A stretch of DNA of 64,000 bases from an uncultured Chloroflexia bacterium (GCA_963828165.1 CAWHDR010000001.1:1184001-1248000); one strand, 5' to 3'; shown: positions 10,584-24,359, counted from the first letter of the stretch. Notes: generated by a model not told the origin, from the sequence alone. Translations and numbers: made by a program.

Positions 10584-10690
10584 TGTGCATGGCGTGAGTG
10601 GCAACTCCTGCCGCCCCCTGCCCGCCGCCTCGACGGATCGCTGGATCCGATCGGCGCGGATCGGAACACGCGTCGCTCCAAGGAGTTCGC

Positions 10691-11047
10691 TTGACCGGGA
10701 TCTGGTACGTCATCGGGTTCGCCTTCGCGGGCGTGTCCTTCGTGTTCCTGACGATCGCCGCCGCGTGGCTCGTGTCCCACCGCAACCGCGGCGACGTGCA
10801 CAAGGGCCTGCCCTACGAATCCGGGATCGACACGTACGGCGACACCCATGGCCGCTTCGGCCTGTCGTTCTACATCTACGCCCTGCTGTTCGTCGCGTTC
10901 GATATCGAAGTCATCTTCATCTACCTGTGGGCGATCGCCTTCGACTCGCTGCTGCTGGGCGGCCTGGTCAGCATGCTGATCTTCGTGGGCATCCTCCTGC
11001 TCGGCCTGGCTTACGCCTGGCGCAAGGGGGCGATGTCATGGCGGTGA
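10691..11047 (+). CDS. nuoA: NADH-quinone oxidoreductase subunit A
   Basis: [26 protein letters not shown]; TTG start after AAGGAG. Confidence 0.95.
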
Positions 11048-11805
11048 AGCCCAAGGGTGCCGATGGGGCCGAGAACCTCGGCACCGGTCCGGCGGACGTG
11101 ACGGCGATCGGCTCCGACGCCACGACTCAGCCCGGGCTGCCCGCGACCCGTCCGTCGGATGCGCTGACGGTCCCGATCGTCGTCCCCAACTCGCTCTGGC
11201 AGGCCGCCGATCCTGAGGCCTACGACGGCGGGCGCCCGACCGACATCACCCACCTCGCCGAGTTCGAGGCGAGCGGTCTCGGTCGCCGCGACGATGCCCG
11301 CTGGGGCGGCTTCCTCGAGGTCATCCCGACGAAGGCCGACTATGTGCTCGACCTCATCCGGATGAACAGCCTCTGGCCGCTGCTCTCGGGCCTGGCCTGT
11401 TGCGCGATCGAGATGATGTCGGCGGCGACCTCGAAGAACGACATGGACCGCTGGGGCATGTTCCCGTTCCGGGCAAGCCCACGCCAGGCCGACGTCCTGA
11501 TCGTGGCCGGCACGCTGACGACCAAGATGGCGGGGCCGCTCGTCCGCCTGTGGGAGCAGATGCCCGAGCCCAAGTGGTGCGTGGCGATGGGCGATTGCAC
11601 CTGTTCCGGGGGGCGCTACAAGCGGAGCTACTCCACGGTCGAGGGCATCGACCGGGTCATGCCGGTCGACGTCTACGTCCCGGGCTGTCCGCCCCGCCCG
11701 GAGGGCCTCATCTACGGGATGATGAAGCTCCAGCAGCTCGTCAAGGACCGCCGCGGGCACTGGCCCGACCGGGCGATCGGGCCGACCGTTCCCGAGCAGG
11801 TCTGA
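11038..11805 (+). CDS. nuoB: NADH-quinone oxidoreductase subunit B (long N-terminal extension)
   Basis: [42 protein letters not shown]. Confidence 0.96.
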
Positions 11806-11807
11806 CC

Positions 11808-12356
11808 ATGGACCGCGCGTTCAAGGCCCGCCTGGAGGCCCGCTTCGCCGACCAGCTGACCGGGCCGGTCCGGCAGCGCCACGACGAGACCGAGATCCGC
11901 ATCGGCCCCGGCGACGTGACCCAGGTGATCACCGCGCTCCACGACGAGCCCGCGTTCGGCTTCGAGTTCCTGGCCGATCTGGCGGGCGTCGACACCGGCG
12001 AGGTCATGCAGGTCGTCTACCACCTGTGGAGCGCGACGACACCGGACTGGCTGCGGGTCATCGCCGACGGCCTTTCGCGCGACGACCCCCGCGTCCCGTC
12101 GGTCACCTTCATGTGGAAGGGCGCCGAGTGGATGGAGCGCGAGGCCTACGACATGTTCGGCATCACGTTCGAAGGCAACCGCGACCTGCGGCGCATCTAC
12201 ATGCCGCCCGACTACCAGAGCTTCCCCTTGCGCAAGGACTTCTTCCTGCCCGACGACGCCGCCCGCTCGCCCGGGGCGGGTGTTCGACCCATGGAGCGAA
12301 CCCACGCGCCGCGCAACGCTCCGGCGACCGCGACGGTCCGCCGTGGCGATGCCTGA
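11808..12356 (+). CDS. nuoC: NADH-quinone oxidoreductase subunit C
   Basis: DLAGVD, VVYHL, W.EREAYDMFGI.F.G..DLRRI...FPLRKDF. Confidence 0.95.
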   Translation: MDRAFKARLEARFADQLTGPVRQRHDETEIRIGPGDVTQVITALHDEPAFGFEFLADLAGVDTGEVMQVVYHLWSATTPDWLRVIADGLSRDDPRVPSVTFMWKGAEWMEREAYDMFGITFEGNRDLRRIYMPPDYQSFPLRKDFFLPDDAARSPGAGVRPMERTHAPRNAPATATVRRGDA

Positions 12357-12383: not shown

Positions 12384-13634
12384 ATGACCGCGACGAAGCC
12401 CCGCCCCGACGCCCCCGCCCACGCCCAGCCGGACGCGCCGAGCGACGATCCGCGCGTCAGGCTCGACCGCGACCTCGGCGTGTTCGAGCCGGTCCCGCCC
12501 TACCCGCCCCGGACCGAGCGAGAGGCCGAGTTCTACACCCTCGGCGACGGCGAGATGTTCATCAACATGGGCCCCCAGCACCCGTCGACCCACGGCGTGC
12601 TCAGGGTCGTCCTCAAGCTCGACGGCGAGAAGGTCGTCGACCTCGATCCGGTCCTGGGCTACCTCCATCGCGGTGTCGAGAAGCTGTGCGAGAACGCCGA
12701 CTACCACCAGGCCATCTGCTACCTCGATCCGCTCGAGTACGTGAGCTCACTGTTCTGCGAGTGGCCCGGCGTCATGGCGTTCGAGAAGCTGATGGACGTC
12801 CAGGTCCCGCGCCGCGCCGAGTACATCCGCGTCCTGTCCGCGGAGCTCAACCGGGTGGCCAGCCACGCCCTGTTCCTCGGTTGGATGGCGCTCGACCTCG
12901 GCGGCCTCACGCCGATCCTGTGGTCGTTCATCGAGCGCGACGAGATCGTGGAGATGCTTGCCTCGCTGACCGGCCAGCGGATGCTGTTCAACTACTTCCG
13001 GATCGGCGGCGTGAACGGCGACCTCAACCACGAGTTCATGAGCCGGCTCGGCGACTGGATGAGCCACGCGACCGAGCAGATCGAGGCGGGCAACGCGCTC
13101 CTCAACGAGAACGAGATCTTCGTGCGCCGGATGCGCGGTCTCGGCACCATCGACTCGAAGGCGGCGCTGCGGATGGTGATGACCGGGCCGAACCTGCGCG
13201 CGACGGGCGTGCCGTTCGATGTCCGCCGGGCGCACCCGTACAGCATCTATCCGGAGCTGGATTTCGACATCCCGACGCGCACCGAGGGCGACTGCCTGGC
13301 GCGCTACCTGCTCCGGATGGACGAGGTCAAGCAGAGCCTGCGGATCATCGACCAGTGCCTGCACCAGATGCCGGACGGCCCGGTCATGGCCAAGCTTCCG
13401 CGTCTGCTCCGACCGCGTCCGGGACGCGCGTACGCCGGCATCGAGGGCCCACGCGGCCAGTACGCCGCATACGTCGTGAGCGACGGCACCGACCAGCCCT
13501 TCCGCATGCGGATCCACGACCCCTCGTTCATCCACCTGCAGGCGGTGGGGGTCATGACCCCGGGTCACTTGATCGCCGACACGATGGCGGTGATGGCGTC
13601 CCTCGACCCGATCATGGGCGGCGTCGACAAGTGA
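12384..13634 (+). CDS. nuoD: NADH-quinone oxidoreductase subunit D
   Basis: NMGPQHPSTHGVLR, GYLHRGVEK, ELNRVASH, EGPRG; no NiFe-binding CxxC motifs. Confidence 0.96.
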   Translation: MTATKPRPDAPAHAQPDAPSDDPRVRLDRDLGVFEPVPPYPPRTEREAEFYTLGDGEMFINMGPQHPSTHGVLRVVLKLDGEKVVDLDPVLGYLHRGVEKLCENADYHQAICYLDPLEYVSSLFCEWPGVMAFEKLMDVQVPRRAEYIRVLSAELNRVASHALFLGWMALDLGGLTPILWSFIERDEIVEMLASLTGQRMLFNYFRIGGVNGDLNHEFMSRLGDWMSHATEQIEAGNALLNENEIFVRRMRGLGTIDSKAALRMVMTGPNLRATGVPFDVRRAHPYSIYPELDFDIPTRTEGDCLARYLLRMDEVKQSLRIIDQCLHQMPDGPVMAKLPRLLRPRPGRAYAGIEGPRGQYAAYVVSDGTDQPFRMRIHDPSFIHLQAVGVMTPGHLIADTMAVMASLDPIMGGVDK

Positions 13635-13789: not shown

Positions 13790-15130
13790 ATGACGGTCGT
13801 CGGGAGGTCTTGGGGCAGGCTGACCCTGCCCGGCAAGATCGTGTTCACGGTCGTGCCCTTGTTGCTGCTTGCGACCGTTGCATTGGTCGCGGTCATCGTG
13901 CTGTTTGGCGAGCCGATCCTCGACATCCTCGTCGCGAACCTGCCGATCGTCCGTTTCGTGGTGGCAGTGACGATCGTCCTGCTGATGACGATCCCGACCG
14001 CGTTCCTGATCATCTACATGGAGATGAAGATCATCGCCCTGATGAATCTTCGGATCGGGCCGGATCGGGTGGGTCCGTTCGGATCCCTGCTGTCGGTGGT
14101 CCACGGGCTCAAGGTCCTCATGAAGGAGGATTTCACCCCCACGGGCGCCGACCCCATCGTGTTCACGTGGGCCCCGGTCGTCGTCTACCTCGCGAGCGTG
14201 ATGACGCTGCTCGTGATCCCGTTCGCGCCGGGGCTGTACGGGCAGGACCTGAACCTGGGGCTGCTCTACTTCTTCGCGATCGGCGGGCTGTCCGTGGTCG
14301 GGCTGCTGATGGCCGGCTGGGCGAGCTACAACAAGTACTCGCTCCTCGGCGGCCTGCGCGCGGCAGCCCAGGTCATCAGCTACGAGATCCCGCTGGTGCT
14401 GTCGGTCGTCGGGCTGATCCTGTTGGCCGACACGATGAGCGTGAACCAGATCGCGGAGAACCAGGCGGGCTGGTTCACCGACTGGTACATCTTCCGCCAA
14501 CCGCTCGGGGCGCTGATCTTCTTCATCGCCGCGACCGCCGAGGCGAACCGCACCCCGTTCGACCTCACGGAGGCCGACTCCGAGATCGTCGCGGGCTTCG
14601 CGACGGAGTACTCGGGGATGCGCTTCGGCTTCTTCTTCTTCGCCGAGTACGTGAACGTATTCATCGTCTCGGCGCTGTTCGTCACGTTGTTCCTTGGCGG
14701 CTGGAATGCCCCGTTCCCCTGGCCGTGGCCGGTGGAGCTGTCGCTGGACCCGGCCGGACTCGGCATCGGCCTGCTGCTGCTGGCCGGGATCGTCCCGGTC
14801 GTCCTGACGCTGCTCTTCGCCGCGCCGTTCTGGATCGCGAGCTCGCGCATCAAGTGGTGGCAGGCCCTGCTCGCCGGCTTCGTGCTGGCGAACCTGTTCA
14901 TCGTTGCGATGCTTGGTGCGTGGGCGTACATCGGGCTCGACTGGGTCGCCGGTATCCTCTGGTTCATGCTCAAGACGTACACGCTGGTGTTCACCTTCGT
15001 GTGGATGCGCGGCACGCTCCCGCGCGTCCGCATCGACCAGCTGATGGACTTCGCCTGGAAGTGGCTGCTCCCGGCATCCCTCCTGAACCTGTTCGTGACC
15101 GCGGCGGCCATCGTCGTCGTGGGCCGGTGA
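13790..15130 (+). CDS. nuoH: NADH-quinone oxidoreductase subunit H (with extra TM segments)
   Basis: R.GP.RVGPFG, GWASYNKYSLLGGLRAAAQVISYE, NRTPFDL.EADSEIVAGF.TEYSG, RGTLPR.RIDQLM. Confidence 0.95.
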   Translation: MTVVGRSWGRLTLPGKIVFTVVPLLLLATVALVAVIVLFGEPILDILVANLPIVRFVVAVTIVLLMTIPTAFLIIYMEMKIIALMNLRIGPDRVGPFGSLLSVVHGLKVLMKEDFTPTGADPIVFTWAPVVVYLASVMTLLVIPFAPGLYGQDLNLGLLYFFAIGGLSVVGLLMAGWASYNKYSLLGGLRAAAQVISYEIPLVLSVVGLILLADTMSVNQIAENQAGWFTDWYIFRQPLGALIFFIAATAEANRTPFDLTEADSEIVAGFATEYSGMRFGFFFFAEYVNVFIVSALFVTLFLGGWNAPFPWPWPVELSLDPAGLGIGLLLLAGIVPVVLTLLFAAPFWIASSRIKWWQALLAGFVLANLFIVAMLGAWAYIGLDWVAGILWFMLKTYTLVFTFVWMRGTLPRVRIDQLMDFAWKWLLPASLLNLFVTAAAIVVVGR

Positions 15131-15140
15131 GGGGCATCGC

Positions 15141-15824
15141 ATGAGCTTCATCCCAGGCCTCGGCATCGCGAAGGGCATGGCGCTGACCCTGCGCCGCTTC
15201 TTCGAGCCCAAGGTCACGATCATGTACCCGGAGGTGCGGGCCGACGTCCCGCACAAGTTCCGCGGCCGGCTGCAGCTGCTCTACGACGAGTGGGGCACGC
15301 TCAAGTGCGAGACCTGCTTCCAGTGCGCCCAGGCGTGCCCGATCGAATGCATCGACATGGGCGGCATCGATACCCGCGGCCGATACCACGTCCACTGGGG
15401 CGCGGCCGAGACGTACGGGGAGCGGCGCGAGGAATCCGCGCTGCGCCGGTCGGGACGGACGGTGCCGGATCCGGCCTACCTCCCGTTCGCGCCGGTCGAC
15501 CTCGCCCAGGTCGACGCGATCCTCGAAGAACACGACCACGACCCCGCACGGATGCTCGACATCCTCGAGGCGACCCAGACCGCCTACGGCTACCTGCCCG
15601 TCGCCGCGCTCAAGCGGATCAGCCACGAGACGGGAGCCTGGTACGCGATGATCTACGGCACGGCCAGCTTCTACGCGCACCTGCGCTTCGAGCCCGCGGC
15701 GTCCGCCGAGCAGGCGAAGGCCGTGGACGAGCACCGGCCGGCCGAATTCGAGCTATCTCGCGGCGCTCGATGCCGCGCTGGACGGCGGCGGGCGCCCCGG
15801 CGCTCCGGCGCGGGCCTGACATGA
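15141..15824 (+). CDS. Fusion of the NuoI N-terminal half (one CxxCxxCxxxCP) with the NuoE N-terminal helical domain; no [2Fe-2S] domain
   Basis: KGMALTLRRFF...VTIMYPE...FRGR...KCETCFQCAQACP is NuoI-like; LDILEATQTAYGYLP..ALKRIS..TG....IYGTASFY is NuoE-like. A probable extra T near 15747 would give the true stop at 15819. Confidence 0.85.
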   Translation: MSFIPGLGIAKGMALTLRRFFEPKVTIMYPEVRADVPHKFRGRLQLLYDEWGTLKCETCFQCAQACPIECIDMGGIDTRGRYHVHWGAAETYGERREESALRRSGRTVPDPAYLPFAPVDLAQVDAILEEHDHDPARMLDILEATQTAYGYLPVAALKRISHETGAWYAMIYGTASFYAHLRFEPAASAEQAKAVDEHRPAEFELSRGARCRAGRRRAPRRSGAGLT

Positions 15825-17119
15825 CCGAGATCCTGAAGACGCCGGCCAAATGGCCGACGATCCTCCTCGGGCGGGCGCATGCCAAGGACCCGACGGACCT
15901 CGATGCCGCCGTCGCAGCGGGCGCATTCACCGGCCTGCGCCGCGCCATCCGGGACCTGGGCCCGACCGCGATCATCGCGACGGTGGCCGAGTCCGGGCTG
16001 CGCGGGCGGGGCGGGGCGGGCTATCCGGCCGGCGAGAAATGGCGGACCGCGGCGACCACGGATGCCGACCGGCGCTACGTGGTGGCGAACGGCTATGGCG
16101 CTGACCCTGCCTCGCACACGGACCGCTCGCTGATGCTCCTGGACCCGTTCTCGGTGATCGAAGGCACGGCCATCGCCGCGTACGCGATCGGCGCGAACGA
16201 GGCCTTCATCGCCGTGCGATCGGAGGACGCCGACGTCATCGCAAGCGTGTCGGCGGCCATCGGCGCCGCGACGGACGCCGGCTTCGTGGGGGAGGACGTC
16301 TCGGGTTCCGGGCACGACATCCACATCACGGTCCGCCCCGTCCAGGGCGCATACATGCTCGGCGAGGAGACCGTCCTGCTCAAGGCGCTCGAGGGCAAGC
16401 GCGGCCAGCCCGAGCAACGACCACCGCACCCGGCCGAACGCGGGCTCTTCGACCGCCCGACGCTCGTCCACAACGTCCAGACTCTCGCGGCCGTGCCGTG
16501 GATCGTGCGCGAAGGCGCCACGGCGTTCCGCGCGACCGGGACGACCGGCAGCCCTGGGACGGTGCTCGTCCAGGTGCGCACGCCCGGCGGCAAGAACGGA
16601 GTCGCGGAAGTCCCGCTCGGCACGCCGCTGCGCGACGTCCTGGGCCTCGGCGGCAAGCTGCCGGCCGGTCGGTCGATGAAAGCGGTGCTGGTGGGCGGCC
16701 CATCCGGCGGGCTCTTGCCAGCGGACGCGCTCGACACCCCCTACGACTTCGAGCCCTTGCGGGCGGTCGGTGCGCACCTTGGATCAGGCTCTGTCGTGGT
16801 CGTCGACGATCGGACCGACCTGCTCGAGCTCGTCGGCGTCCTGACGCGGTTCTGTTCGAACGAGGCCTGCGGCAAGTCCATCCCGTGCCGGATCGGCGTC
16901 AAGCGCCTGGCCGAGATCGTCGCGCGGCGCGAGGAAGGCCTGCTGCGGCCGGTCGACATGGAGCTCGCGACGGACCTCGCGACCGACATCGTGGCCTCCG
17001 CCCTGTGCGACCACGAGCGGCTGGCCACCCTCCCCCTGACCAGCGGGATGCGATACTTCGGGTCCGACTTCGACCCTGCCCGCCGTCCCCAGCCGGCGTC
17101 GACCGAGGCCCCCCGATGA
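15821..17119 (+). CDS. nuoF: NuoF-like flavoprotein with degenerate NADH/FMN-site and N3 motifs
   Basis: SGLRGRGGAGYP.G.KW, GAYMLGEET.L..LEGKRGQP, VGGPSGG, GSG.VVV, EACGKSIPCRIG...ALC. Confidence 0.88.
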   Translation: MTEILKTPAKWPTILLGRAHAKDPTDLDAAVAAGAFTGLRRAIRDLGPTAIIATVAESGLRGRGGAGYPAGEKWRTAATTDADRRYVVANGYGADPASHTDRSLMLLDPFSVIEGTAIAAYAIGANEAFIAVRSEDADVIASVSAAIGAATDAGFVGEDVSGSGHDIHITVRPVQGAYMLGEETVLLKALEGKRGQPEQRPPHPAERGLFDRPTLVHNVQTLAAVPWIVREGATAFRATGTTGSPGTVLVQVRTPGGKNGVAEVPLGTPLRDVLGLGGKLPAGRSMKAVLVGGPSGGLLPADALDTPYDFEPLRAVGAHLGSGSVVVVDDRTDLLELVGVLTRFCSNEACGKSIPCRIGVKRLAEIVARREEGLLRPVDMELATDLATDIVASALCDHERLATLPLTSGMRYFGSDFDPARRPQPASTEAPR

Positions 17120-19782
17120 CCGACACCCTGGCCCGTCCACCCGGCCGCACCGCCACGACCGCACCGTCGGCTCCCGAGTCGTCCGCGGAGTCGCTCGCCG
17201 ATCGCCTGCTGGACACGCAGTCGCCGCAGCGCCCCCAGTCGACGCCGCGGATCCGCATCGAGGTCGACGGCCGCGTCGTCGAGGGCTTCGAGGGTCAGAC
17301 GATCCTCGAGGTCTGCCGCGACAACGGGATCGAGATCCCGACGCTGTGCTACGAACCCAAGCTGCCTGGCTTCGGTGCCTGCCGGATGTGCGTCGTCGAG
17401 GTCGAGGGCGAAGAGCACCCGCCGATCTCCTGCTCGCGCACCTGCGAGCCGGAGATGAAGGTCCAGACCCAGACCGAAACGGTCCGCCGCCTGCGCCGGA
17501 CGAACCTCGAGCTGATCTTCAGCGATCACAACGCGTACTGCCTGCCGCCATGCCAGAACAAGTGCCCGAGCCACATCGACATCCCGGGCTTCCTCAAGGC
17601 CAACGCCGAGGGCAACTTCCGCGAGTCGGCCCGCATCTTCAAGCGGACGATCCCGTTCCCATCCGTCCTCGGGCGGGTCTGCCCGGCACCGTGCGAGGAG
17701 CACTGCCGGCGCGACGAGGTCGATGAGGCGATCGCCATCCGCGATACGCACCGCTACGCCGGCGACCAGGTCCTCAAGGCGCAGCTGGACGACGGGATCG
17801 ATCCGCCGGTCCCGTTCGAACAGCAGACGAAGTCCGGTCGCACGGCCGCGGTCATCGGTTCCGGACCGGCCGGCATGGCCGCCGCGTATTACCTGCTGAT
17901 CGCCGGCCACGACGTCACGGTCTTCGAGCGCGACCCGGCACCCGGCGGCATGCTCCGCTACGGCATCCCGCAGTACCGCCTGCCCAAGGTCGAGGTCCTC
18001 GAGGCCGAGTACGAGTCGGTCATGCGCCTCGGCGCGAAGATGGTCACCAACGCCGGGCTCGGGCGCGATTTCACGCTCGACGACCTGACGATGCAGGGCT
18101 TCGACTCGGTCGTCGTGGCCATCGGCTGCTACGACACGAACAAGCTCGGGATCCCGAACGAGGACGCCGACGGCGTCATCGATGGGCTCGAGTACCTGCG
18201 CACGGCGACGCTCGGCCTGCCCTACCCCGACCACGTCGGCAAGCGCGTCGTGGTCATCGGCGGCGGCTTCACCTCGATGGACTGCTCGCGGACGTCGGTC
18301 CGCCAGGGCGCCGGCGAGGTCACGCTCGTGTACCGCCGCGACATGAAGGACATGCCGGCGGCCGACGAGGTCCACGAGGCCATCGAGGAAGGCGTGACCG
18401 CGATCTTCCAGGCCGGACCGACGCGGGTCATCACGGACGAGAAGACCGGCAAGGTCACGGGCGTCGAGTTCATCCGCATGCAGCTCGGCGAGCCGGACGC
18501 GTCCGGCCGGCGCCGGCCGGAGCCAGCGCCCGGGACGGAGTTCACGATCCCGTGCGACCGGGTGTTGTTGGCCATCGGCCAGGGACCAGAGCTCGATTGG
18601 CTGGCCCAGCCCGGCAACGAGGGCCCCGAGGCCACCAAGCAGCGACGTCTCAAGGCCGACTCCGTGACGTTCTCGACGGGCCGTCCCGGCGTCTTCGGCA
18701 CCGGCGACGTGCGGATCGGCGCGGCGACGGTGGTCGAGGCGATCGCCGAAGGCCGGCGCGCTGCCTATGCCGTGGACGCCTTCCTGAAGGGCATGGATCT
18801 CGACGCGATCCGGACGCGCCAGACGCTGGCCGAGCCCCAGCCGGAGTTCCTGTCGATCGTGCCGTTCACGGCCGAGATGAAGGAATCTCGCTACCGGTTG
18901 CAGGCCCTGCCTGCCGAGATGCGCAACCGGAGCTACATCGAGTACGAGCTGCCCTACACGCCCGAGGCGGCCGTGGCCGAGTCGACCCGCTGCCTGCAGT
19001 GCACGTGCGAGGCCATCGGCTTCTGCGACCTGCGACGGCTGGGGATCGAATACGGCACCACGCTCAAGACCCTGGAGCCGCAGAACCACCAGGGCGCGGG
19101 CTACCGGTCGGTGACGGAGAACCGGTTCACGGGCATCAACCACGACTACATCCGCGACGATTCGCACGCGTTCATCCTGCGCGAGCCCTCCCGCTGCATC
19201 GACTGCGGGCGGTGCGCGAATGTGTGCGCCGAGGTCGTCGGCGCCGCGTGCTACGACTTCATGCGCATCGGCTTCGACACGCTCGTCACGACGCCACTCG
19301 ACATGAGCCTCAACGACACCCCGTGCGTGTCCTGCGGGCGCTGCGCCGAGACGTGCCCGACCGGCGCCTTGATGCCGAAACCGCGGGTGCTCGAGAAGTA
19401 CGAAGTCGACGAGAGCCGCTGCATCCTGTGCGGGATCTGCGTCGATGCCTGCCCGTACGACGCACTGCGCGACGGCGCGGACTTCGAGCTCGCGCACACC
19501 GGCCGCGACGAGCCGAACATCGACCTCATGGCGCTCGCGGCGATCGACCGCGAGACCGAGGTCACGTACATCCGCCGCGAGCGCGACTGGGCGACGCGAG
19601 CGGCGGCCGAGGGCAGGATCATCGACCCGGGGCGGATGCTGCCGATGCTGCCACCCACGATCTCGGGCGTTCCGACGCCTGGCGCGATCGGCGCGGGCGG
19701 GAATGGACATGGGGGCAATGGACACGACCACGGCCACGATCACGGAGCGGTCGCGGCCCTCGGTCCGGGCGGGCACGAGTAG
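17116..19782 (+). CDS. Multidomain FeS flavoprotein: NuoG-type [2Fe-2S] + GltD/NfnB-type FAD/NAD(P)H domain + NuoG-type [4Fe-4S] + NuoI C-terminal half + His-rich tail
   Basis: IPTLCY...GACRMCVVEV...ISC; PCQNKCP...GRVCPAPCEEHC; GSGPAG; GGGFTSMD, YRR; RCIDCGRCANVC, CVSCGRCAETCPTGAL; YEVDESRCILCGICVDACPYDAL..GADFELA. Confidence 0.9.
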   Translation: MTDTLARPPGRTATTAPSAPESSAESLADRLLDTQSPQRPQSTPRIRIEVDGRVVEGFEGQTILEVCRDNGIEIPTLCYEPKLPGFGACRMCVVEVEGEEHPPISCSRTCEPEMKVQTQTETVRRLRRTNLELIFSDHNAYCLPPCQNKCPSHIDIPGFLKANAEGNFRESARIFKRTIPFPSVLGRVCPAPCEEHCRRDEVDEAIAIRDTHRYAGDQVLKAQLDDGIDPPVPFEQQTKSGRTAAVIGSGPAGMAAAYYLLIAGHDVTVFERDPAPGGMLRYGIPQYRLPKVEVLEAEYESVMRLGAKMVTNAGLGRDFTLDDLTMQGFDSVVVAIGCYDTNKLGIPNEDADGVIDGLEYLRTATLGLPYPDHVGKRVVVIGGGFTSMDCSRTSVRQGAGEVTLVYRRDMKDMPAADEVHEAIEEGVTAIFQAGPTRVITDEKTGKVTGVEFIRMQLGEPDASGRRRPEPAPGTEFTIPCDRVLLAIGQGPELDWLAQPGNEGPEATKQRRLKADSVTFSTGRPGVFGTGDVRIGAATVVEAIAEGRRAAYAVDAFLKGMDLDAIRTRQTLAEPQPEFLSIVPFTAEMKESRYRLQALPAEMRNRSYIEYELPYTPEAAVAESTRCLQCTCEAIGFCDLRRLGIEYGTTLKTLEPQNHQGAGYRSVTENRFTGINHDYIRDDSHAFILREPSRCIDCGRCANVCAEVVGAACYDFMRIGFDTLVTTPLDMSLNDTPCVSCGRCAETCPTGALMPKPRVLEKYEVDESRCILCGICVDACPYDALRDGADFELAHTGRDEPNIDLMALAAIDRETEVTYIRRERDWATRAAAEGRIIDPGRMLPMLPPTISGVPTPGAIGAGGNGHGGNGHDHGHDHGAVAALGPGGHE

Positions 19783-19790
19783 GCCGGACG

Positions 19791-20384
19791 GTGCTCGCGA
19801 AGCTCGTCCCGATCCTCATCGCGCTCATCGTCATGGGCGCCGTCCTCGGCATCGCGGCCCTCATGCTGATCGTGCTTGGCCAGGACTGGGACGACGCACT
19901 CTTGTGGATCCTGTCCGCCGTGATGCTGGGCTCGGGGCTCCTGGTCGTGACGATGCGCGACATCATCCGCTGCGGCCTGGCGATGATCGTGTGCTTCCTC
20001 GCCCTGGCCGGGATCTACGTCCTGATGGGGGCGCCTTTGCTGGGGGCCGCCCAGGTCATCGTCTATATCGGCGCGATCAGCGTGCTGATCCTCTTCGCGA
20101 TCATGCTGACCCAGACCAAGGACGCCCCGAGCCGGCTGGTCTTCCAGACCCAGGCCGTGCCGGCGGCCATCGCGGCCGTCGTGGTCGCCATCCTCATCGC
20201 GCTGGCCGTGGCAGCGACCGACTGGGGTGAGCTGACCGAGCGTGTGCGCCTCGCCACGAGCAGGATGTCGGAGGTCCTGTTCGAGCAGTTCGTGTTCCCG
20301 TTCGAGATCGTCAGCGTCCTGCTGCTGGCGGCCGTGATCGGCGGCGTGTTCCTGGCCAAGCGCGAACCGGGCGGCCCGCCGTGA
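19791..20384 (+). CDS. nuoJ: NADH-quinone oxidoreductase subunit J
   Basis: [37 protein letters not shown]; GTG start inferred. Confidence 0.93.
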
Positions 20385-20698
20385 GCGACAGCCTCGATGC
20401 GTACCTGATCCTGTCGGGGATCCTCTTCGCCATCGGTTCTTTCGGCTTCCTGGCCCGGCGTAACGCGATCAGCATGCTGATGTCGATCGAGCTGATGCTC
20501 AACGCCGTCAACCTCGCCATCGTGGCCTTTGCCGCGTTCAGTCCGGCCCTCGACGCACAGGCCCAGGGCTCGGTCATCGCCCTGATGGTCATGGCGGTAG
20601 CCGCCGCCGAGGCCACAGTCGGGCTGGCCATCGTCATCGCGATCTACCGGAACAAGAAGACCCCTCTCGTTGACGAATACGACGCGATGTCCCGGTGA
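20381..20698 (+). CDS. nuoK: NADH-quinone oxidoreductase subunit K
   Basis: [29 protein letters not shown]. Confidence 0.96.
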
Positions 20699-22701
20699 GC
20701 CTCGAGTCGCTGATCCCGCTGCTTGTCATCCTGCCCATCGCAGGCTTCGCGGTCACGGCGCTCGTCGGGCGACGGCTGGGCAAGCAAGCCCACTGGGTCC
20801 CGGTGCTCGTGATCCTCGGCGCGTGGGCCATCGCGATGGCCCTGGCCTTCCAGGTGCTGACGGGCGCCGCGCCGCTGCTTGAGGGATCCGAAGAGGCACA
20901 CGGGTACGCCCTTCACTGGTTCACCTGGATCCCGGCCGGCGACTTCGTCGTGGAGGTCGGCTTCGTCGTTGACTCGCTGACGGCGTGCCTGCTGATCGTG
21001 GTCACGACGATCGGGCTGCTCGTCCACATCTATTCGGTCGGCTACATGAGCCACGACCCGGGGTACTGGCGCTTCTTCGCCTACCTGAACCTGTTCATGT
21101 TCTCGATGCTGCTGCTGGTCCTCGCGGATTCTTGGCTCGTGGTGTTCGTGGCGTGGGAGCTGGTCGGCCTGTGCAGCTACCTGCTCATCGGCTTCTGGTA
21201 CCGCAAGCGCTCGGCCGCGCTGGCCGCCAAGAAGGCGTTCATCGTCAACCGCGTCGGCGACATCGGTTTCGCGCTCGGGATCATGGCCATCTGGGTCAAC
21301 ACCGGCGCCGTGGGCGAGGCGACGCTGAACATCCGCGAGTCCATCCATACGATGCTCGAGGCGGGCGATGCCAACCCGATCCCGCTCTTCGCGACCGCGT
21401 TGCTCGTGTTCGCCGGAGCCATGGGCAAGAGCGCCCAGTTCCCGCTCCACGTCTGGCTCCCCGACGCGATGGAGGGCCCGACCCCGGTGTCGGCGCTCAT
21501 CCACGCGGCCACCATGGTCAACGCCGGCGTGTACCTGGTCGCCCGGGCGAACGAGCTGTTCGCCTCCGCCCCCGACGCGATGGTCATCGTCGCCGCGATC
21601 GGCATCTTCACGGCCATCCTCGCGGCGACGATCGCCATGACCCAGACGGACATCAAGCGGGTCCTCGCCTATTCCACGCTGAGCCAGCTCGGCTACATGT
21701 TCGCGGCGCTCGGGGTGGGCGCGTTCACCGCGGCGATCTTCCACCTCATGACCCACGGCTTCTTCAAGGGCCTGCTGTTCCTGGGTTCCGGTTCGGTCAT
21801 CCACGCCGTCCACGAAGAGCAGGACATGCGCCGGATGGGGGGCCTCGCCTCGAAGATCCCCATCACCTACGCGACGATGTTCATCGGCTCCATCGCGATC
21901 GCCGGCATCCCGCCGCTGGCAGGCTTCTTCAGCAAGGACGAGATCCTGGGTGAGGCCTTCAAGTTCGGCTTCTACTGGGTCTGGGGGATCGGCCTGTTCG
22001 TCGCGTTCCTGACGGCCTTCTACATGTTCCGGCTGATGGGTTTGACGTTCTGGGGCGCGTTCCGAGGTCCCAAGGAGCTCTGGGACCGCATCCACGAGTC
22101 ACCGCGGGTGATGACCGTGCCGCTCATCCTGCTGGCGATCCCGTCGATCTTCCTGGGCATGGTGCTCGGCCTCCCGCTCGGCGACAGCACCCTCCATCAC
22201 TGGCTGGAACCGGTCTTCCACCATTCGACCGAGGAACTGCTCCACCTCCCGCACGAGCCGTACGCGCTGTTCGGCATCGACGGCGGGCTGATCCTTGCGA
22301 GTGTCACGGTCGCCGCGATCGGCGTGGCCCTGGCCTGGCGCCTGTTCGGAGCCGACGTCGGCGCGCTGCGCCTGCCGGCCCGACCCGAGCGGGTGCGCGA
22401 GATCAGCTCACGTCCCGGCCTCTCGTTCCTCTATCGGGCATCGCTCAACAAGTGGTGGTTTGACGAGCTCTACCACTTGCTGTTCATCGTTATCGGTGGT
22501 CGGATCGCGGCGGCGATGTGGTGGTTCGATCGGGAGGTCGTCGACGGGACCGTGAACGATGTCGGCCGGGCCACGGTCGGTGCGGGGCGCGGGCTGCGGC
22601 GCGTGCAGACCGGTCGAGTCCAGAACTACGCGCTCGGGATCGCCCTCGGCCTGATCGTCATGGCTGGTTCCTACCTGATCCTCGTGGGGAACCCGCGATG
22701 A
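20695..22701 (+). CDS. nuoL: NADH-quinone oxidoreductase subunit L
   Basis: [54 protein letters not shown]. Confidence 0.97.
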
Positions 22702-24359
22702 CGCTCAACGCGTTCCCGATCCTGTCGCTGGTCACGTTCCTGCCGTTGGTCGGGGCCTTGGTGGTGGCGATCCTGCCCTCCAGGTTCACCCGACCGGTCG
22801 CGCTCGGTTTCGCGCTCGCGGCGTGGGTGGTCTCGCTGCTCCTGCTGATCGGCTACCTGCCCGGGCGGCTGGGCACGCAGTTCCTGTACGTCGAGGTGTA
22901 CGACTGGATCCCGATCTTCGGCATCCAGTACAAGCTCGGCGTCGATGGGTTATCGGCCGCCCTGGTCGTGCTCACGACCACGCTGACCTGGATCTCCATC
23001 CTGGCGAGCTGGAAGCCGATCCAGACCCGGATCAAGGAATACATGATCAGCTTCCTGGTCCTCGAGGTGGGGATGATCGGCGTCTTCCTCGCCCTGGACA
23101 TGTTCCTGTTCTACATCTTCTGGGAGATCGTCCTGGTCCCGATGTACCTGATCATCGGCATCTGGGGCGGCGCGAACCGGATCTACGCGACGATCAAGTT
23201 CGTCCTGTACACGCTCGTCGGGTCGCTCCTGATGCTCGTGGCCATCCTGGCGACGGCATTCGCCTACCAGGCGGCCAACGGCGGCTCGTGGGTCGGCGCC
23301 TTCGACTTTGAGACGTTGCGCACGTTTGCCAGCGGCGGCGGCTTCTCGCCGGCCCTCCAGGTGGGTGCCTTCCTGGCCTTCTTCCTGGCGTTCGCGATCA
23401 AGGTCCCCATGTTCCCGTTCCACACGTGGCTGCCCGACGCGCATACCGAGGCGCCGACCGCGGGCTCGGTGATCCTGGCCGCGATCATGCTCAAGCTCGG
23501 CGCGTACGGGTTGATCCGCTTCGCGGTGCCGCTGTTCCCGGACGCGGCCCTGACGTTCGCGCCGGTCGTGATCGTGCTCTCGCTGATCGCGATCATCTAC
23601 GGGGCGATCGTGGCGCTCGTCCAACCGGACCTCAAACGGCTCGTGGCCTTCTCATCGGTCAGCCACATGGGCTTCGTGACGCTGGGCCTGTTCGTCTTCA
23701 CGGAGCAGGGCGTCCAGGGCGCGATCCTCCAGATGATCAACCACGGACTCATCACGGGTGGCCTGTTCCTCCTGGTCGGCGTCATCTACGAGCGGACCCA
23801 CGACCGGACGATCGCGAAGATGGGCGGGCTCGCGGCGCGGATGCCAGTGTGGGCCGCCGTGTTCGGGTTCTTCGCCTTCGCGTCTGGCGGGCTGCCGGGC
23901 CTGTCCGGCTTCGTCGGGGAGTTCCTCACGCTGGTCGGGACGTTCGACGTCAGCCCGCTGGGCGCGACGATCGCGGCCTTCGTGATGGTTCTCGCGGCGG
24001 GGTACCTGCTGTACATGTACGGGCGCATCGTCTTTGGCGAGGTCTCCGGGTTCATCGCAGGCCTTGGGAATCACCTGGCGGACATGACCCCGATCGAAAC
24101 GCTGACCCTTGTGCCGCTGGCGACGCTGATCGTCGTGTTCGGCTTGCAGCCGGGGCTGCTGCTCGACCTCGTGCGGGGGACGGTGCGTGAGACGCTGGGT
24201 GCCGCGTCGACGGGCGCGCCCCTGTCGGTCGGCCCAGAAGTCGTGCTGATCGGTGTCGCCATCGTCGTGCTGGCCGTGATCGCCCGGATCGCGTTCGCCC
24301 TGCGACCGGGGCGGTCGGAGCCCGCAGGGACCGTGGCCGCCGAAGGCGGCGCCCATTGA
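22698..24359 (+). CDS. nuoM: NADH-quinone oxidoreductase subunit M
   Basis: FYIFWE..LVPMY, KVPMFPFHTWLPDAHTEAPT, LKRLVAFSSVSHMG, GLPGLSGFVGE. Confidence 0.96.
   Translation: MTLNAFPILSLVTFLPLVGALVVAILPSRFTRPVALGFALAAWVVSLLLLIGYLPGRLGTQFLYVEVYDWIPIFGIQYKLGVDGLSAALVVLTTTLTWISILASWKPIQTRIKEYMISFLVLEVGMIGVFLALDMFLFYIFWEIVLVPMYLIIGIWGGANRIYATIKFVLYTLVGSLLMLVAILATAFAYQAANGGSWVGAFDFETLRTFASGGGFSPALQVGAFLAFFLAFAIKVPMFPFHTWLPDAHTEAPTAGSVILAAIMLKLGAYGLIRFAVPLFPDAALTFAPVVIVLSLIAIIYGAIVALVQPDLKRLVAFSSVSHMGFVTLGLFVFTEQGVQGAILQMINHGLITGGLFLLVGVIYERTHDRTIAKMGGLAARMPVWAAVFGFFAFASGGLPGLSGFVGEFLTLVGTFDVSPLGATIAAFVMVLAAGYLLYMYGRIVFGEVSGFIAGLGNHLADMTPIETLTLVPLATLIVVFGLQPGLLLDLVRGTVRETLGAASTGAPLSVGPEVVLIGVAIVVLAVIARIAFALRPGRSEPAGTVAAEGGAH

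What the first reader, a model, noticed from the sequence alone, without database searches (positions are those of the whole stretch)
15141..19782. Complex I with a split NuoI: a ~4-kb electron-input module sits inside nuoI, and each half is fused to a different protein
Seen: the operon order is nuoA-B-C-D-H-[X-Y-Z]-J-K-L-M-N, with no intact nuoI, nuoE or nuoG. X starts as NuoI (VTIMYPE, FRGR, CETCFQCAQACP) and switches to NuoE sequence after only one ferredoxin motif. The missing half of NuoI (EKYEVDESRCILCGICVDACPYDAL..GADFELA) is found at about 19378-19560, at the C-terminus of Z, directly before nuoJ, where nuoI normally ends. Established: in 2x[4Fe-4S] ferredoxin folds such as NuoI, clusters N6a and N6b each take three Cys from one motif and one from the other. 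Inference: both clusters would be ligated across two polypeptides, tethering a foreign input module to the quinone module. I know of no described complex I with this architecture.
Basis: partly seen in the sequence, partly recalled or inferred. Interest (0 to 1): 0.93.

Follow-up and report, generated by a model that had tools for sequence, protein, structure and literature searches.

The report
Complex I with a split NuoI subunit
In a whole class of soil and freshwater bacteria, one iron-sulfur core subunit of respiratory complex I is encoded in two halves, each fused to a piece of an NADH/NADPH-oxidising module borrowed from transhydrogenase-like enzymes, so the two proteins probably have to share two iron-sulfur clusters to work.

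Summary
The operon reads nuoA-B-C-D-H-X-Y-Z-J-K-L-M-N. X (15141-15824) is the N-terminal half of NuoI, with one CxxCxxCxxxCP motif, fused to the helical N-domain of a NuoE-like protein. Y is a core NuoF. Z (17116-19782) is a StnC/NfnA-type flavoprotein (2Fe-2S, GltD-like FAD/NADPH domain, 4Fe-4S domains). Its molybdopterin-like end is replaced by the C-terminal half of NuoI.

NuoI profiles match X and Z in complementary fashion (TIGR01971 positions 1-63 and 71-115 of 121). All eight cluster cysteines are invariant in the aligned relatives. The genome (87.7% complete) has no intact nuoI. In the class (named Candidatus Limnocylindria in public records), 121 of 121 sampled genomes carry half matches and only 4 also have an intact NuoI. 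X-Y-Z modules next to nuoB also occur in three other Chloroflexota families.

Best reading: the halves rebuild the N6a/N6b ferredoxin fold across two polypeptides. This wires a two-flavin (FMN plus FAD) NAD(P)H input module to the quinone module. Cross-ligation is inferred; a fold of the two halves gave only weak support (0.35 against 0.00 for controls). I found no description in print. New variant of a known kind; high interest.

The parts
10598..11047 (+). nuoA (ORF as listed; the true start is probably later)
   Evidence: ORF; NuoA model NF005839 93.7 bits (below cut-off 163)
11038..11805 (+). nuoB, with an N-terminal extension of about 94 aa before the conserved part
   Evidence: TIGR01957 218 bits (cut-off 142.7), match from residue 95
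11808..12356 (+). nuoC
   Evidence: TIGR01961 112.5 bits (cut-off 122.45)
12384..13634 (+). nuoD (complex-I type, no NiFe cysteine motifs seen)
   Evidence: NF004739 432 bits (cut-off 360); sequence
13790..15130 (+). nuoH
   Evidence: NF004741 331.8 bits (cut-off 305)
15141..15824 (+). gene X: NuoI N-half fused to a NuoE-like helical domain (P0001, 227 aa)
15156..15359 (+). NuoI N-terminal half (X residues 6-73), including the only Cys motif of X (C56, C59, C62, C66, P67 at 15306-15341)
   Evidence: nodes 4-71 of 148, 83.6 bits; TIGR01971 positions 1-63 of 121; Cys and Pro invariant in 21 of 21 sequences
15492..15701 (+). NuoE/StnA-like N-terminal helical domain (X residues 118-187). No thioredoxin-like 2Fe-2S domain follows.
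   Evidence: 9bov_C residues 20-89 (E 2.1e-11), 8oh5_A residues 14-86; PF01257 positions 2-64 of 145
15745..15750 (+). one extra base relative to relatives; it shifts the frame of the last ~24 codons of X
   Evidence: gap against L009, L018, L014; base 15747 left out in one contig each of runs X1 and X5
15821..17119 (+). gene Y: core NuoF-like FMN/NADH subunit (P0002, 432 aa); FMN domain 15983-16498, N3-type 4Fe-4S region 16841-17074 with a non-canonical Cys pattern
   Evidence: (TIGR01959 347 bits, cut-off 558.65)
17116..19782 (+). gene Z: StnC/NfnA-type Fe-S flavoprotein ending in the NuoI C-half (P0003, 888 aa)
17248..17475 (+). 2Fe-2S domain of NuoG/HydA type (Z residues 45-120)
   Evidence: PF13510 71.6 bits
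17539..18789 (+). GltD-like domain with two 4Fe-4S sites, FAD and NADPH sites (Z residues 142-558)
   Evidence: PF14691, PF07992; TIGR01318 314 bits; NfnI, GltD, StnC; glycine motifs and Y406, R407, R408 invariant in 15 of 15 sequences
18991..19026 (+). CxxCxCx5C cluster motif (C626, C629, C631, C637)
   Evidence: invariant in 15 of 15 sequences; aligned to the same motif of 9bov_A
19174..19383 (+). complete 2x[4Fe-4S] ferredoxin-like domain of NuoG/HydA type (Z residues 687-756)
   Evidence: PF22117 residues 687-752; Cys invariant
19384..19539 (+). NuoI C-terminal half (Z residues 757-808), with Cys motif C769, C772, C775, C779, P780 at 19420-19455
   Evidence: nodes 81-132, 39.7 bits; TIGR01971 positions 71-115/116; Cys and Pro invariant in 15 of 15 sequences
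19540..19683 (+). C-terminal extension that still aligns with the end of T. thermophilus Nqo9
   Evidence: 2fug_9 residues 73-177 of 182 against query residues 4-116 (Z residues 744-856)
19684..19782 (+). Gly/His-rich tail of Z
   Evidence: present in the close relatives and absent from the four distant lineages
19791..20384 (+). nuoJ
   Evidence: NF005168 113.6 bits, below cut-off 154
20381..20698 (+). nuoK
   Evidence: NF004320 106.5 bits (cut-off 57)
20695..22701 (+). nuoL
   Evidence: NF005141 727 bits (cut-off 556)
22698..24359 (+). nuoM
   Evidence: TIGR01972 569 bits (cut-off 263.8)
24356..25852 (+). nuoN
   Evidence: TIGR01770 413 bits (cut-off 332.6)

Best explanation
This is the organism's only respiratory complex I. 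Its core subunit NuoI is encoded in two pieces that flank a three-gene input module.

The N-half of NuoI (start of X) supplies one CxxCxxCxxxCP motif. The C-half (end of Z) supplies the other. The two pieces associate into one 2x[4Fe-4S] ferredoxin fold. Each of clusters N6a and N6b then takes three cysteines from one polypeptide and the fourth from the other (inferred).

This shared fold sits on NuoB/NuoD as NuoI normally does. It also anchors X-Y-Z to the quinone module.

X-Y-Z descends from the Stn/Nfn (Bfu) family of transhydrogenases.
- Y is a stripped NuoF-type FMN/NADH subunit.
- The rest of X is the helical NuoE-type domain that holds on to Y (the NuoE role is recalled).
- Z carries a GltD-type FAD/NADPH site plus a chain of Fe-S clusters.

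In StnC the last clusters are a dead-end branch. Here that branch runs straight into the NuoI C-half.

Electrons from NADH (FMN in Y), and very likely also from NADPH (FAD in Z), therefore converge on one Fe-S chain that ends at N6a, N6b, N2 and quinone. The antiporter-like subunits L, M and N pump protons as usual.

Shown: the domain architecture, the complementary NuoI halves, conservation of the ligands, absence of an intact NuoI, and clade-wide distribution.

Inferred: physical reassembly of the halves, cross-ligation, use of NADPH, and direction of electron flow.
For: Complementary profile coverage:
- TIGR01971: X covers positions 1-63 and Z covers 71-115 of 121. The same two places are the best two NuoI matches in the genome.
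- My profile of six intact Chloroflexota NuoI: X nodes 4-71 (83.6 bits) and Z nodes 81-132 (39.7 bits).
- Nqo9 of T. thermophilus aligns to X residues 9-71 with its residues 6-68, and to Z residues 744-856 with its residues 73-177.

Ligand conservation: the four Cys plus Pro of each half are invariant in 21 of 21 X sequences and 15 of 15 Z sequences. These span five families, down to 24-29% (X) and 44-48% (Z) identity.

Neither protein can complete these clusters alone. X has a single motif. In Z the preceding two motifs already form a full ferredoxin domain.

No intact NuoI:
- 0 matches over the cut-off in the own genome.
- 117 of 121 class genomes have none over the cut-off, and 121 of 121 have a half match at E<=1e-8. 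Most have both halves; G456, G464, G477, G478, G492 and G494 have a single match.
- The own genome has one nuoH and one nuoB.

Gene position:
- X-Y-Z lies exactly between nuoH and nuoJ in families f1, f2 and f3.
- In family f4, nuoH is followed directly by nuoJ, and B-D-X-Y-Z lies elsewhere.

Module identity:
- Z residues 46-779 align to 9bov_A residues 4-699 (E 1e-160), to StnC 8oh5_C (E 7e-137) and to NfnA 9n5u_A.
- Y aligns to the core of NfnB/StnB/HydB.
- X residues 118-187 align to 9bov_C and to 8oh5_A, deposited as an NAD-dependent formate dehydrogenase gamma subunit, which I take to be StnA.
- In StnC the path is FAD-C7-C6-C5-C4-C3, and C1/C2 are called a non-functional remnant (PMC10482914, sections 7 and 8 read).

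Flavin sites: the FAD and NADPH glycine motifs and Y406, R407, R408 are invariant in 15 of 15 Z sequences. Their role in 2'-phosphate binding is recalled.

Fold of X residues 1-112 with Z residues 750-848 and two 4Fe-4S: weak support.
- Score 0.35, best of 3 controls 0.00.
- The mark was reached by 58 of 80 solved complexes and 2 of 110 mismatched pairs. At 0.60 or under it was reached by only 7 of those 80 and by both mismatches that passed.
- The runs agree in at least 79% of contacts; the partner's pLDDT is at least 52.
- I used my own alignments and a riding ligand, so the counts hold only roughly.
- NuoI is solved many times, so the pass may reflect likeness only.
Against: - There is no biochemical or structural datum for any member.
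- The complex prediction is only weak (0.35, pLDDT about 50), and no interface was returned.
- The N3 motif of Y is non-canonical here. The middle Cys of ESCGKCxPC is Ser or Thr in families f1 and f2 (with an extra Cys five residues upstream) and Ala in f3. Families f4, f28 and f46 keep it. The FMN branch may therefore be altered.
- X lacks the NuoE 2Fe-2S domain in this genus.
- All X, Y and Z matches to curated equivalog models are below cut-off.
- The genome is 87.7% complete, so an intact nuoI in the missing part cannot be excluded for this one genome.
- 4 of 121 class genomes do hold an intact NuoI as well.
- NADPH use rests on motif conservation alone.
Confidence: 0.78

Rival explanations
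1. The module is wired as described, but the enzyme's main job is not simple NAD(P)H oxidation. It would couple NADH, NADPH and quinone/proton-motive force. One form is a built-in transhydrogenase. Another is reverse electron flow from quinol that helps reduce NADP+, echoing the ferredoxin-dependent chemistry of Stn/Nfn.
For: The closest solved relatives are electron-bifurcating transhydrogenases (PMC10482914 abstract and sections 7-8). Two nucleotide sites are retained in one Fe-S network. The NuoI-N2 end stands where, in Stn, a side branch of clusters lies.
Against: Y lacks the N-terminal 2Fe-2S and C-terminal 2x[4Fe-4S] domains of StnB/NfnB/HydB. It aligns only to residues 117-521 of NfnB (602 aa) and 148-560 of HydB (630 aa). 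These domains include the site where Stn is said to reduce ferredoxin (Fig. 2 legend, PMC10482914). X lacks the 2Fe-2S cluster. This is the only complex I in genomes of apparently respiratory organisms.
Confidence: 0.12
2. X-Y-Z is a soluble Stn/Nfn-like oxidoreductase that merely sits in the nuo operon. The NuoI-like ends are relics or bind something else, and the membrane complex takes electrons from another donor.
For: In families f28 and f46, nuoB-X-Y-Z forms a four-gene operon away from any antiporter-like genes. Curated NuoI, NuoF and NuoG cut-offs are not reached.
Against: All eight cysteines and the NuoI-specific flanks are invariant across lineages. Even in the separate operons the module travels with nuoB, the direct partner of NuoI (role recalled). 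A matching nuoA-C-D-H cluster lacking B and I exists in the same genomes. 117 of 121 class genomes would be left with no NuoI at all.
Confidence: 0.05
3. The halves do not pair with each other. Each forms a symmetric ferredoxin-like fold with a second copy of itself (X with X, Z with Z), as the pseudo-twofold ferredoxin fold would allow.
For: StnC is oligomeric (a tetramer mediated by StnC; PMC10482914 section 7). The complex prediction for X with Z was only weak.
Against: The halves match different, complementary parts of NuoI, not the same part. They occur once each per genome in most genomes. Complex I is asymmetric at this position (recalled).
Confidence: 0.03
4. Artefact: a misassembly, or a pseudogenised nuoI in one metagenome-assembled genome.
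For: The genome is a draft (6 contigs, 87.7% complete). The window has one probable single-base error in the tail of X.
Against: The same architecture is found in 41 of 41 genomes, in 121 of 121 class genomes, and in thousands of independent metagenome proteins (2947 hits for X, 973 for the Z tail). Short contigs of other runs bridge both junctions.
Confidence: 0.01

Closest known systems
Canonical bacterial complex I (Nuo/Nqo; e.g. Thermus thermophilus, entries 2fug/4hea)
   Same: Same eleven Q- and P-module genes in the same order (A, B, C, D, H, [I], J, K, L, M, N). NuoI sequence is recognisable over nearly its whole length. A NuoF-type FMN subunit is present.
   Different: NuoI is in two polypeptides. 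There is no NuoG and no 2Fe-2S NuoE (TIGR01973 best match 101.7 bits against cut-off 470). A GltD-type FAD/NADPH domain is part of the input module. The N3 motif is altered.
Stn transhydrogenase of Sporomusa ovata (8oh5), its relative 9bov, and NfnABC of the Bfu family (9n5u)
   Same: The three-subunit logic is NuoE-like + NuoF-like + (NuoG-like with an inserted GltD-like domain). Z residues 46-779 align end to end with 9bov_A residues 4-699 and with StnC residues 3-701. All cluster motifs of that part are kept.
   Different: The formate-dehydrogenase-like C-terminal domain of StnC (residues 683-1172 in the paper) is replaced by the NuoI C-half. Y lacks the extra Fe-S domains of StnB. X lacks the 2Fe-2S domain and instead carries the NuoI N-half. 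The module is encoded inside a nuo operon. Bifurcation to ferredoxin is therefore unlikely.
Mbx-like operons of Thermotoga and proteobacteria, in which NuoI is said to be substituted by a gltD-related flavoprotein (Degli Esposti 2015, PMC4758237; passages only)
   Same: A GltD-type NAD(P)H flavoprotein sits at the NuoI position of a complex-I-like enzyme.
   Different: As described there, it is a substitution in a ferredoxin-oxidising, NADP-reducing Mbx-type complex, not a split of NuoI. It has no NuoF-type subunit. I did not examine those sequences.
Complex I variants with a replaced N-module (Campylobacter/Helicobacter NuoE/F replacements, cyanobacterial NDH-1) (recalled, not tested here)
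   Same: The Q and P modules are kept and the electron-input module is exchanged.
   Different: In those, NuoI stays one polypeptide and the new donor proteins are not fused to it (recalled).

Membership tests
Respiratory complex I (Nuo type) | Genes for the membrane and quinone modules A, B, C, D, H, J, K, L, M, N in one cluster | tested here: met
   all ten match Nuo models. B, D, H, K, L, M and N are over curated cut-offs. A, C and J are below cut-off but are the best hits.
Respiratory complex I (Nuo type) | NuoI as one 2x[4Fe-4S] polypeptide | tested here: not met
   two half matches (about 51 and 44-52 bits) against cut-off 113.05. No intact copy in the genome.
Respiratory complex I (Nuo type) | NuoE-NuoF-NuoG N-module | tested here: not met
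   NuoF-like Y scores 347 bits against 558.65. The NuoE match covers only positions 2-64 of 145. The best NuoG (TIGR01973) match is 101.7 bits elsewhere in the genome, and Z scores 94.3 bits against 470.
Respiratory complex I (Nuo type) | NADH:quinone oxidoreductase activity coupled to proton pumping | not testable with these tools
   Needs membranes or purified enzyme.
NuoI (TIGR01971) | Both Cys motifs and NuoI-specific flanks present | tested here: met
   Met only when X and Z are taken together: positions 1-63 plus 71-115 of 121, or nodes 4-71 plus 81-132 of 148. Eight Cys are invariant.
Stn/NfnABC (Bfu family) transhydrogenase | Large subunit with 2Fe-2S, a GltD-like FAD/NADPH domain and NuoG-like 4Fe-4S domains | tested here: met
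   E 1e-160 (9bov_A), 7e-137 (8oh5_C), 1.5e-140 (9n5u_A). Pfam domains.
Stn/NfnABC (Bfu family) transhydrogenase | NuoF-like subunit with an N-terminal 2Fe-2S and a C-terminal 2x[4Fe-4S] domain (ferredoxin and bifurcation side) | tested here: not met
   Y (432 aa) aligns only with residues 117-521 of NfnB (602 aa) and 148-560 of HydB (630 aa). Pfam finds only PF01512 and PF10589.
Stn/NfnABC (Bfu family) transhydrogenase | NuoE-like subunit with a thioredoxin-like 2Fe-2S cluster | tested here: not met
   X stops after the helical domain. In the alignment the domain is degenerate in f2 and f3, and intact Cys pairs are seen in the distant homologues P0237 and P0252.
Stn/NfnABC (Bfu family) transhydrogenase | Formate-dehydrogenase-like C-terminal domain of the large subunit | tested here: not met
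   The alignment to 9bov_A (1178 aa) ends at its residue 699. Z continues as the NuoI C-half.
NF009454 (PRK12814) putative NADPH-dependent glutamate synthase small subunit | Whole-protein score over the curated cut-off | tested here: not met
   547 bits against cut-off 916, covering Z residues 46-706.

The most novel reading that the evidence does not exclude
A proton-pumping complex I that natively takes electrons from NADPH as well as NADH through a two-flavin, Stn-derived module. The module is held on by two [4Fe-4S] clusters that are each ligated by two different polypeptides. This would be a natural split ferredoxin acting as the joint between modules. It could also let the enzyme exchange reducing power between NADH, NADPH and the quinone pool/proton-motive force.
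Probability: 0.4. Interest if true: 0.9.

Novelty: new variant of a known kind. Interest (0 to 1): 0.82.

Why it matters
Complex I is a textbook case of modular evolution, but how an input module becomes attached to the hydrogenase-like core is known only by inference. Here the attachment is visible in the genes. A three-gene Stn/Nfn-type cassette lies inside nuoI, and the two halves of the connecting ferredoxin are fused to its ends.

If the halves reassemble as proposed, N6a and N6b would be inter-subunit clusters. That would be a natural split 2x[4Fe-4S] ferredoxin, of interest for Fe-S assembly and for protein engineering.

A GltD-type NADPH site wired into the chain would make this a respiratory complex I that can burn NADPH. 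That would change how the redox budgets of an abundant soil and freshwater class (named Candidatus Limnocylindria in public records) are modelled.

Current annotation calls X 'NAD(P)H-dependent oxidoreductase subunit E' or 'ferredoxin', and Z 'FAD-dependent oxidoreductase' or 'formate dehydrogenase major subunit'. Automated surveys would therefore score these genomes as lacking nuoI, nuoE and nuoG.

Tried and rejected
- Misassembly or pseudogene: rejected.
- Intact nuoI elsewhere in the genome: not found. The other weak matches are ferredoxin domains inside large proteins.
- A second NuoE/NuoF/NuoG-like set as the real N-module: one exists at G000:C1:1708475-1714314. It consists of a NuoE-NuoF fusion, a NuoG-N-like protein and a molybdopterin protein with an in-frame TGA. 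It lies 0.5 Mb from the nuo genes, has no NuoI, and looks like an NAD-linked formate dehydrogenase. I did not annotate it further.
- A hydrogenase reading of NuoB/NuoD next to X-Y-Z in other families: not pursued. The NuoB and NuoD there are 53-58% and 43-45% identical to the window's complex-I-type proteins.
- A frameshift at the Y/Z junction, suspected because congeners carry a CPxGVC motif at the end of Y: rejected. The closest relative has the same junction.
- Literature: eight searches found no paper that describes a split NuoI or a complex I with a Stn/GltD-type module in Chloroflexota.
  - Searches returned mostly irrelevant lists.
  - PMC12361115 (passages only) does not mention NuoI or Chloroflexota.
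  - The library lacks most subscription journals.
Supplementary fig. [quoted passage not shown]
- Sequencing runs: no run held half or more of the sampled words (best share 0.20). The habitats named there are therefore not evidence for this strain. The RNA-library contigs laid (runs X15 and X16; pieces over parts of X, Y and Z, including 15140-15269 and 19435-19668) show relatives' sequence in RNA libraries. They do not show transcription.
- I did not run structure prediction or fold search. A single half of a ferredoxin fold was unlikely to give a decisive model.

Claims that include unpublished genomes:
- The tallies (401 genomes) include G184, G212, G266, G309, G078 and G380.
- The tallies (121 genomes) include G486, G477, G494, G481, G462 and G500.
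- No locus that I fetched or aligned comes from any of them.

Full report
**What is in the window.** On the + strand lies one operon: nuoA, B, C, D, H, then three genes I call X (15141-15824), Y (15821-17119) and Z (17116-19782), then nuoJ, K, L, M, N. The ten flanking genes all match the corresponding Nuo models. B, D, H, K, L, M and N are above curated cut-offs. X/Y and Y/Z overlap by ATGA. G+C is about 0.65-0.72 throughout, with no compositional break at X-Y-Z.

**Anatomy of X, Y and Z.**
- X (227 aa). Residues 10-82 match NuoI models over their N-terminal part only. Residues 125-187 match the first 64 of 145 positions of the NuoE-type family PF01257. Against solved structures, X residues 9-73 align with NuoI/TYKY subunits, and residues 118-187 align with the NuoE-like subunits of 9bov, Stn (8oh5_A), NfnC and HydC. 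X has one CxxCxxCxxxCP motif and no thioredoxin-like 2Fe-2S domain.
- Y (432 aa). It is a core NuoF, with Pfam PF01512 and PF10589 and TIGR01959 at 347 bits, below the cut-off of 558.65. Its best solved relatives are NfnB, the 9bov B chain, HydB and StnB. Y aligns only to their central part, for example residues 117-521 of NfnB (602 aa).
- Z (888 aa). It holds a 2Fe-2S domain, a GltD-like domain with two 4Fe-4S sites plus FAD and NAD(P)H folds, a CxxCxCx5C motif, a complete NuoG/HydA-type 2x[4Fe-4S] domain, and then a third, lone CxxCxxCxxxCP motif. Z residues 46-779 align end to end with 9bov_A residues 4-699 (E 1e-160), with StnC 8oh5_C (E 7e-137) and with NfnA 9n5u_A.

**Are the two ends really the two halves of NuoI?**
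- TIGR01971 covers X at positions 1-63 and Z at positions 71-115 of 121.
- In a search of the whole 3.31 Mb genome these are the two best matches (51.3 and 43.6 bits). All other ferredoxin-like stretches score 17.9-26.6 bits.
- I built a profile from six intact NuoI proteins of other Chloroflexota (loci L030-L035). X covers nodes 4-71 (83.6 bits) and Z covers nodes 81-132 (39.7 bits). The ferredoxin domain just upstream in Z scores 15.9 bits.
- The Z match runs beyond the cysteines into NuoI-specific sequence (..YEVDESRC..CPYDAL..FELA..). T. thermophilus Nqo9 aligns in one stretch, residues 73-177 of 182, with Z residues 744-856. Polyferredoxins score higher in total there, but only through many repeated stretches of at most 29 bits each.
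- The four Cys and the Pro of each half are invariant in 21 of 21 X homologues and 15 of 15 Z homologues.

**Is there another NuoI, and is the split real?**
- The genome (6 contigs, 87.72% complete) has no NuoI match over the cut-off. It has one nuoH and one nuoB.
- X with both parts is found in 41 of 41 genomes of the genus (24, plus the window's own genome) and of a sister family with 1.0-1.4 Mb genomes (16).
- In a sample of 121 genomes of the class, 121 have a half match. Most have both halves and six have a single match. Only 4 (G467, G460, G458, G441) also have an intact NuoI.
- Public records name the lineage Candidatus Limnocylindrales / Limnocylindria, phylum Chloroflexota.
- In a library of 1.84 billion representative proteins, X has 1715 hits at E<=0.001 and only 159 at E<=1e-10. 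Many of these are fragments or frame-shifted calls. The named ones are all Chloroflexota.
- Short contigs from other public runs bridge the X/Y junction (run X5 record 28, 15609-15982) and the Y/Z junction (run X1 record 6, 17041-17241).

**Variants of the gene order.**
- Families f1, f2 and f3 have the window's order, A-B-C-D-H-X-Y-Z-J-K-L-M-N.
- Family f4 (G361) has nuoB-nuoD-X-Y-Z at one place and nuoC-H-J-K-L-M-N at another. There nuoH is followed directly by nuoJ. That genome has one nuoB and one nuoH.
- Outside the class, at least 16 genomes of three other Chloroflexota families carry a full-length X homologue at 30-34% identity: f9 with 4, f28 with 11 and f46 with 1. This is a lower bound, because 407 matches were not listed.
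- In the two genomes I opened (G396, G169) the arrangement is a four-gene nuoB-X-Y-Z operon plus a separate nuoA-C-D-H cluster. In G396 that cluster is followed by unrelated genes. G396 also has a standard nuo operon with an intact NuoI.
- So the split NuoI travels with the Stn-like module and with NuoB, not with one operon layout.

**How it most likely works.**
- In 2x[4Fe-4S] ferredoxin folds, each cluster takes three Cys from one motif and the fourth, the one before Pro, from the other. This is established knowledge that I recall rather than tested.
- X has one motif. Z has one spare motif after a complete ferredoxin domain. Together they supply eight Cys for two clusters.
- I therefore read N6a and N6b as ligated across X and Z. 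This both restores the NuoI function between the input chain and N2 in NuoB, and clamps X-Y-Z to the quinone module.
- In StnC, electrons run FAD-C7-C6-C5-C4-C3 to StnB. A branch of two clusters (C1, C2) is described as a non-functional remnant (PMC10482914, sections 7 and 8 read). In Z the formate-dehydrogenase-like domain of that branch is gone, and the chain continues into the NuoI C-half.
- Y keeps the FMN and NADH motifs. Z keeps the FAD and NADPH glycine motifs and Y406, R407, R408 in 15 of 15 sequences.
- The simplest mechanism is a complex I with two entry points, NADH at FMN and NADPH at FAD.
- Y lacks the extra Fe-S domains of StnB/NfnB/HydB, and X lacks the 2Fe-2S cluster. I therefore consider ferredoxin-linked bifurcation unlikely.

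**Structural test.** X residues 1-112 (21-row alignment) were folded with Z residues 750-848 (15-row alignment) and two 4Fe-4S clusters. The verdict was weak support, with score 0.35 and the best of 3 controls at 0.00.
- The mark was reached by 58 of 80 solved complexes and 2 of 110 mismatched pairs. At 0.60 or under it was reached by only 7 of those 80 and by both mismatches that passed.
- The runs agree in at least 79% of contacts, and the partner's pLDDT is at least 52.
- The calibration did not include own alignments or riding ligands.
- NuoI has been solved many times, so a pass may only reflect likeness.
- No interface was returned.

**Points against, and open points.**
- The N3 motif in Y is non-canonical in this order. 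It reads EACGKS/T.PC with an extra Cys five residues upstream in f1 and f2, and GKA with no extra Cys in f3. Families f4, f28 and f46 keep ESCGKC.PC.
- The NuoE part decays stepwise in the alignment. Intact Cys pairs are present in distant homologues (P0237, P0252). The domain is degenerate in f2 and f3. It is absent in this genus.
- The window has one extra base near 15747 that shifts the last ~24 codons of X.
- Nothing here shows activity, assembly or transcription.

**Comparison with what is known, and novelty.**
- The enzyme is a complex I by its Q and P modules. It fails the tests 'NuoI in one polypeptide' and 'NuoEFG N-module'.
- Its input module is a derived member of the Stn/Nfn (Bfu) kind, but it fails three of that family's four defining features.
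- A partial precedent is the statement that in Mbx-like operons of Thermotoga a gltD-related flavoprotein substitutes NuoI (PMC4758237, passages).
- Eight literature searches found no description of a split NuoI or of this architecture. Supplements could not be read.
- I file it as a new variant of a known kind, of high interest.

Noticed in passing
window 15745-15750: The window has one extra base (GAATTCGAG against GAGT-CGAC in relatives). It puts the last ~24 codons of X out of the conserved frame (..PAESxYLAALDAAL..). It is either an assembly error or a strain-specific change. Other deposited proteins (P0008, P0063) show similar shifted tails.
   Followed up: yes
window 16841-17074 (Y residues 341-418): The N3 4Fe-4S motif of the NuoF-like Y has Ser in place of the middle Cys (EACGKSIPC) and an extra Cys five residues upstream. 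It is Thr in f2 and Ala with no extra Cys in f3. It is canonical in f4, f28 and f46.
   Followed up: partly
window 19684-19782: Z has a Gly/His-rich C-terminal tail (GNGHGGNGHDHGHDHG..). It is present in the close relatives and absent from f2, f3, f4, f28 and f46. It may bind metal; its function is unknown.
   Followed up: no
L023 (G396:C3), L024 (G169:C33), L027 (G396:C4), L029 (G169:C7): Other Chloroflexota families carry a four-gene nuoB-X-Y-Z operon and a separate nuoA-C-D-H cluster with no antiporter-like genes beside either. G396 has a standard nuo operon as well. I did not determine where, or whether, this second set gets its membrane arm.
   Followed up: partly
L026 and L028 (G361): In family f4 of the same class the complex I genes are split into nuoB-nuoD-X-Y-Z and nuoC-H-J-K-L-M-N, with nuoH directly followed by nuoJ.
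   Followed up: partly
G000:C1:1708475-1714314 (outside the window): A second set is present: a NuoE-NuoF fusion, a NuoG-N-like Fe-S protein and a molybdopterin oxidoreductase with one in-frame TGA. It may be a selenocysteine-containing NAD-linked formate dehydrogenase.
   Followed up: no
window 11038-11320: NuoB has an N-terminal extension of about 94 aa before the conserved domain (the model match starts at residue 95).
   Followed up: no
window 13790-15130: NuoH matches its models in two stretches, and tblastn to relatives also splits around residues 310-388. This suggests a lineage-specific insertion in a loop.
   Followed up: no
L022-L026, C-terminus of Y homologues: Most Y homologues end with a CPxGVC-like motif (CLSGAC in f3). 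It is missing from the window's Y and from its closest relative L009.
   Followed up: partly
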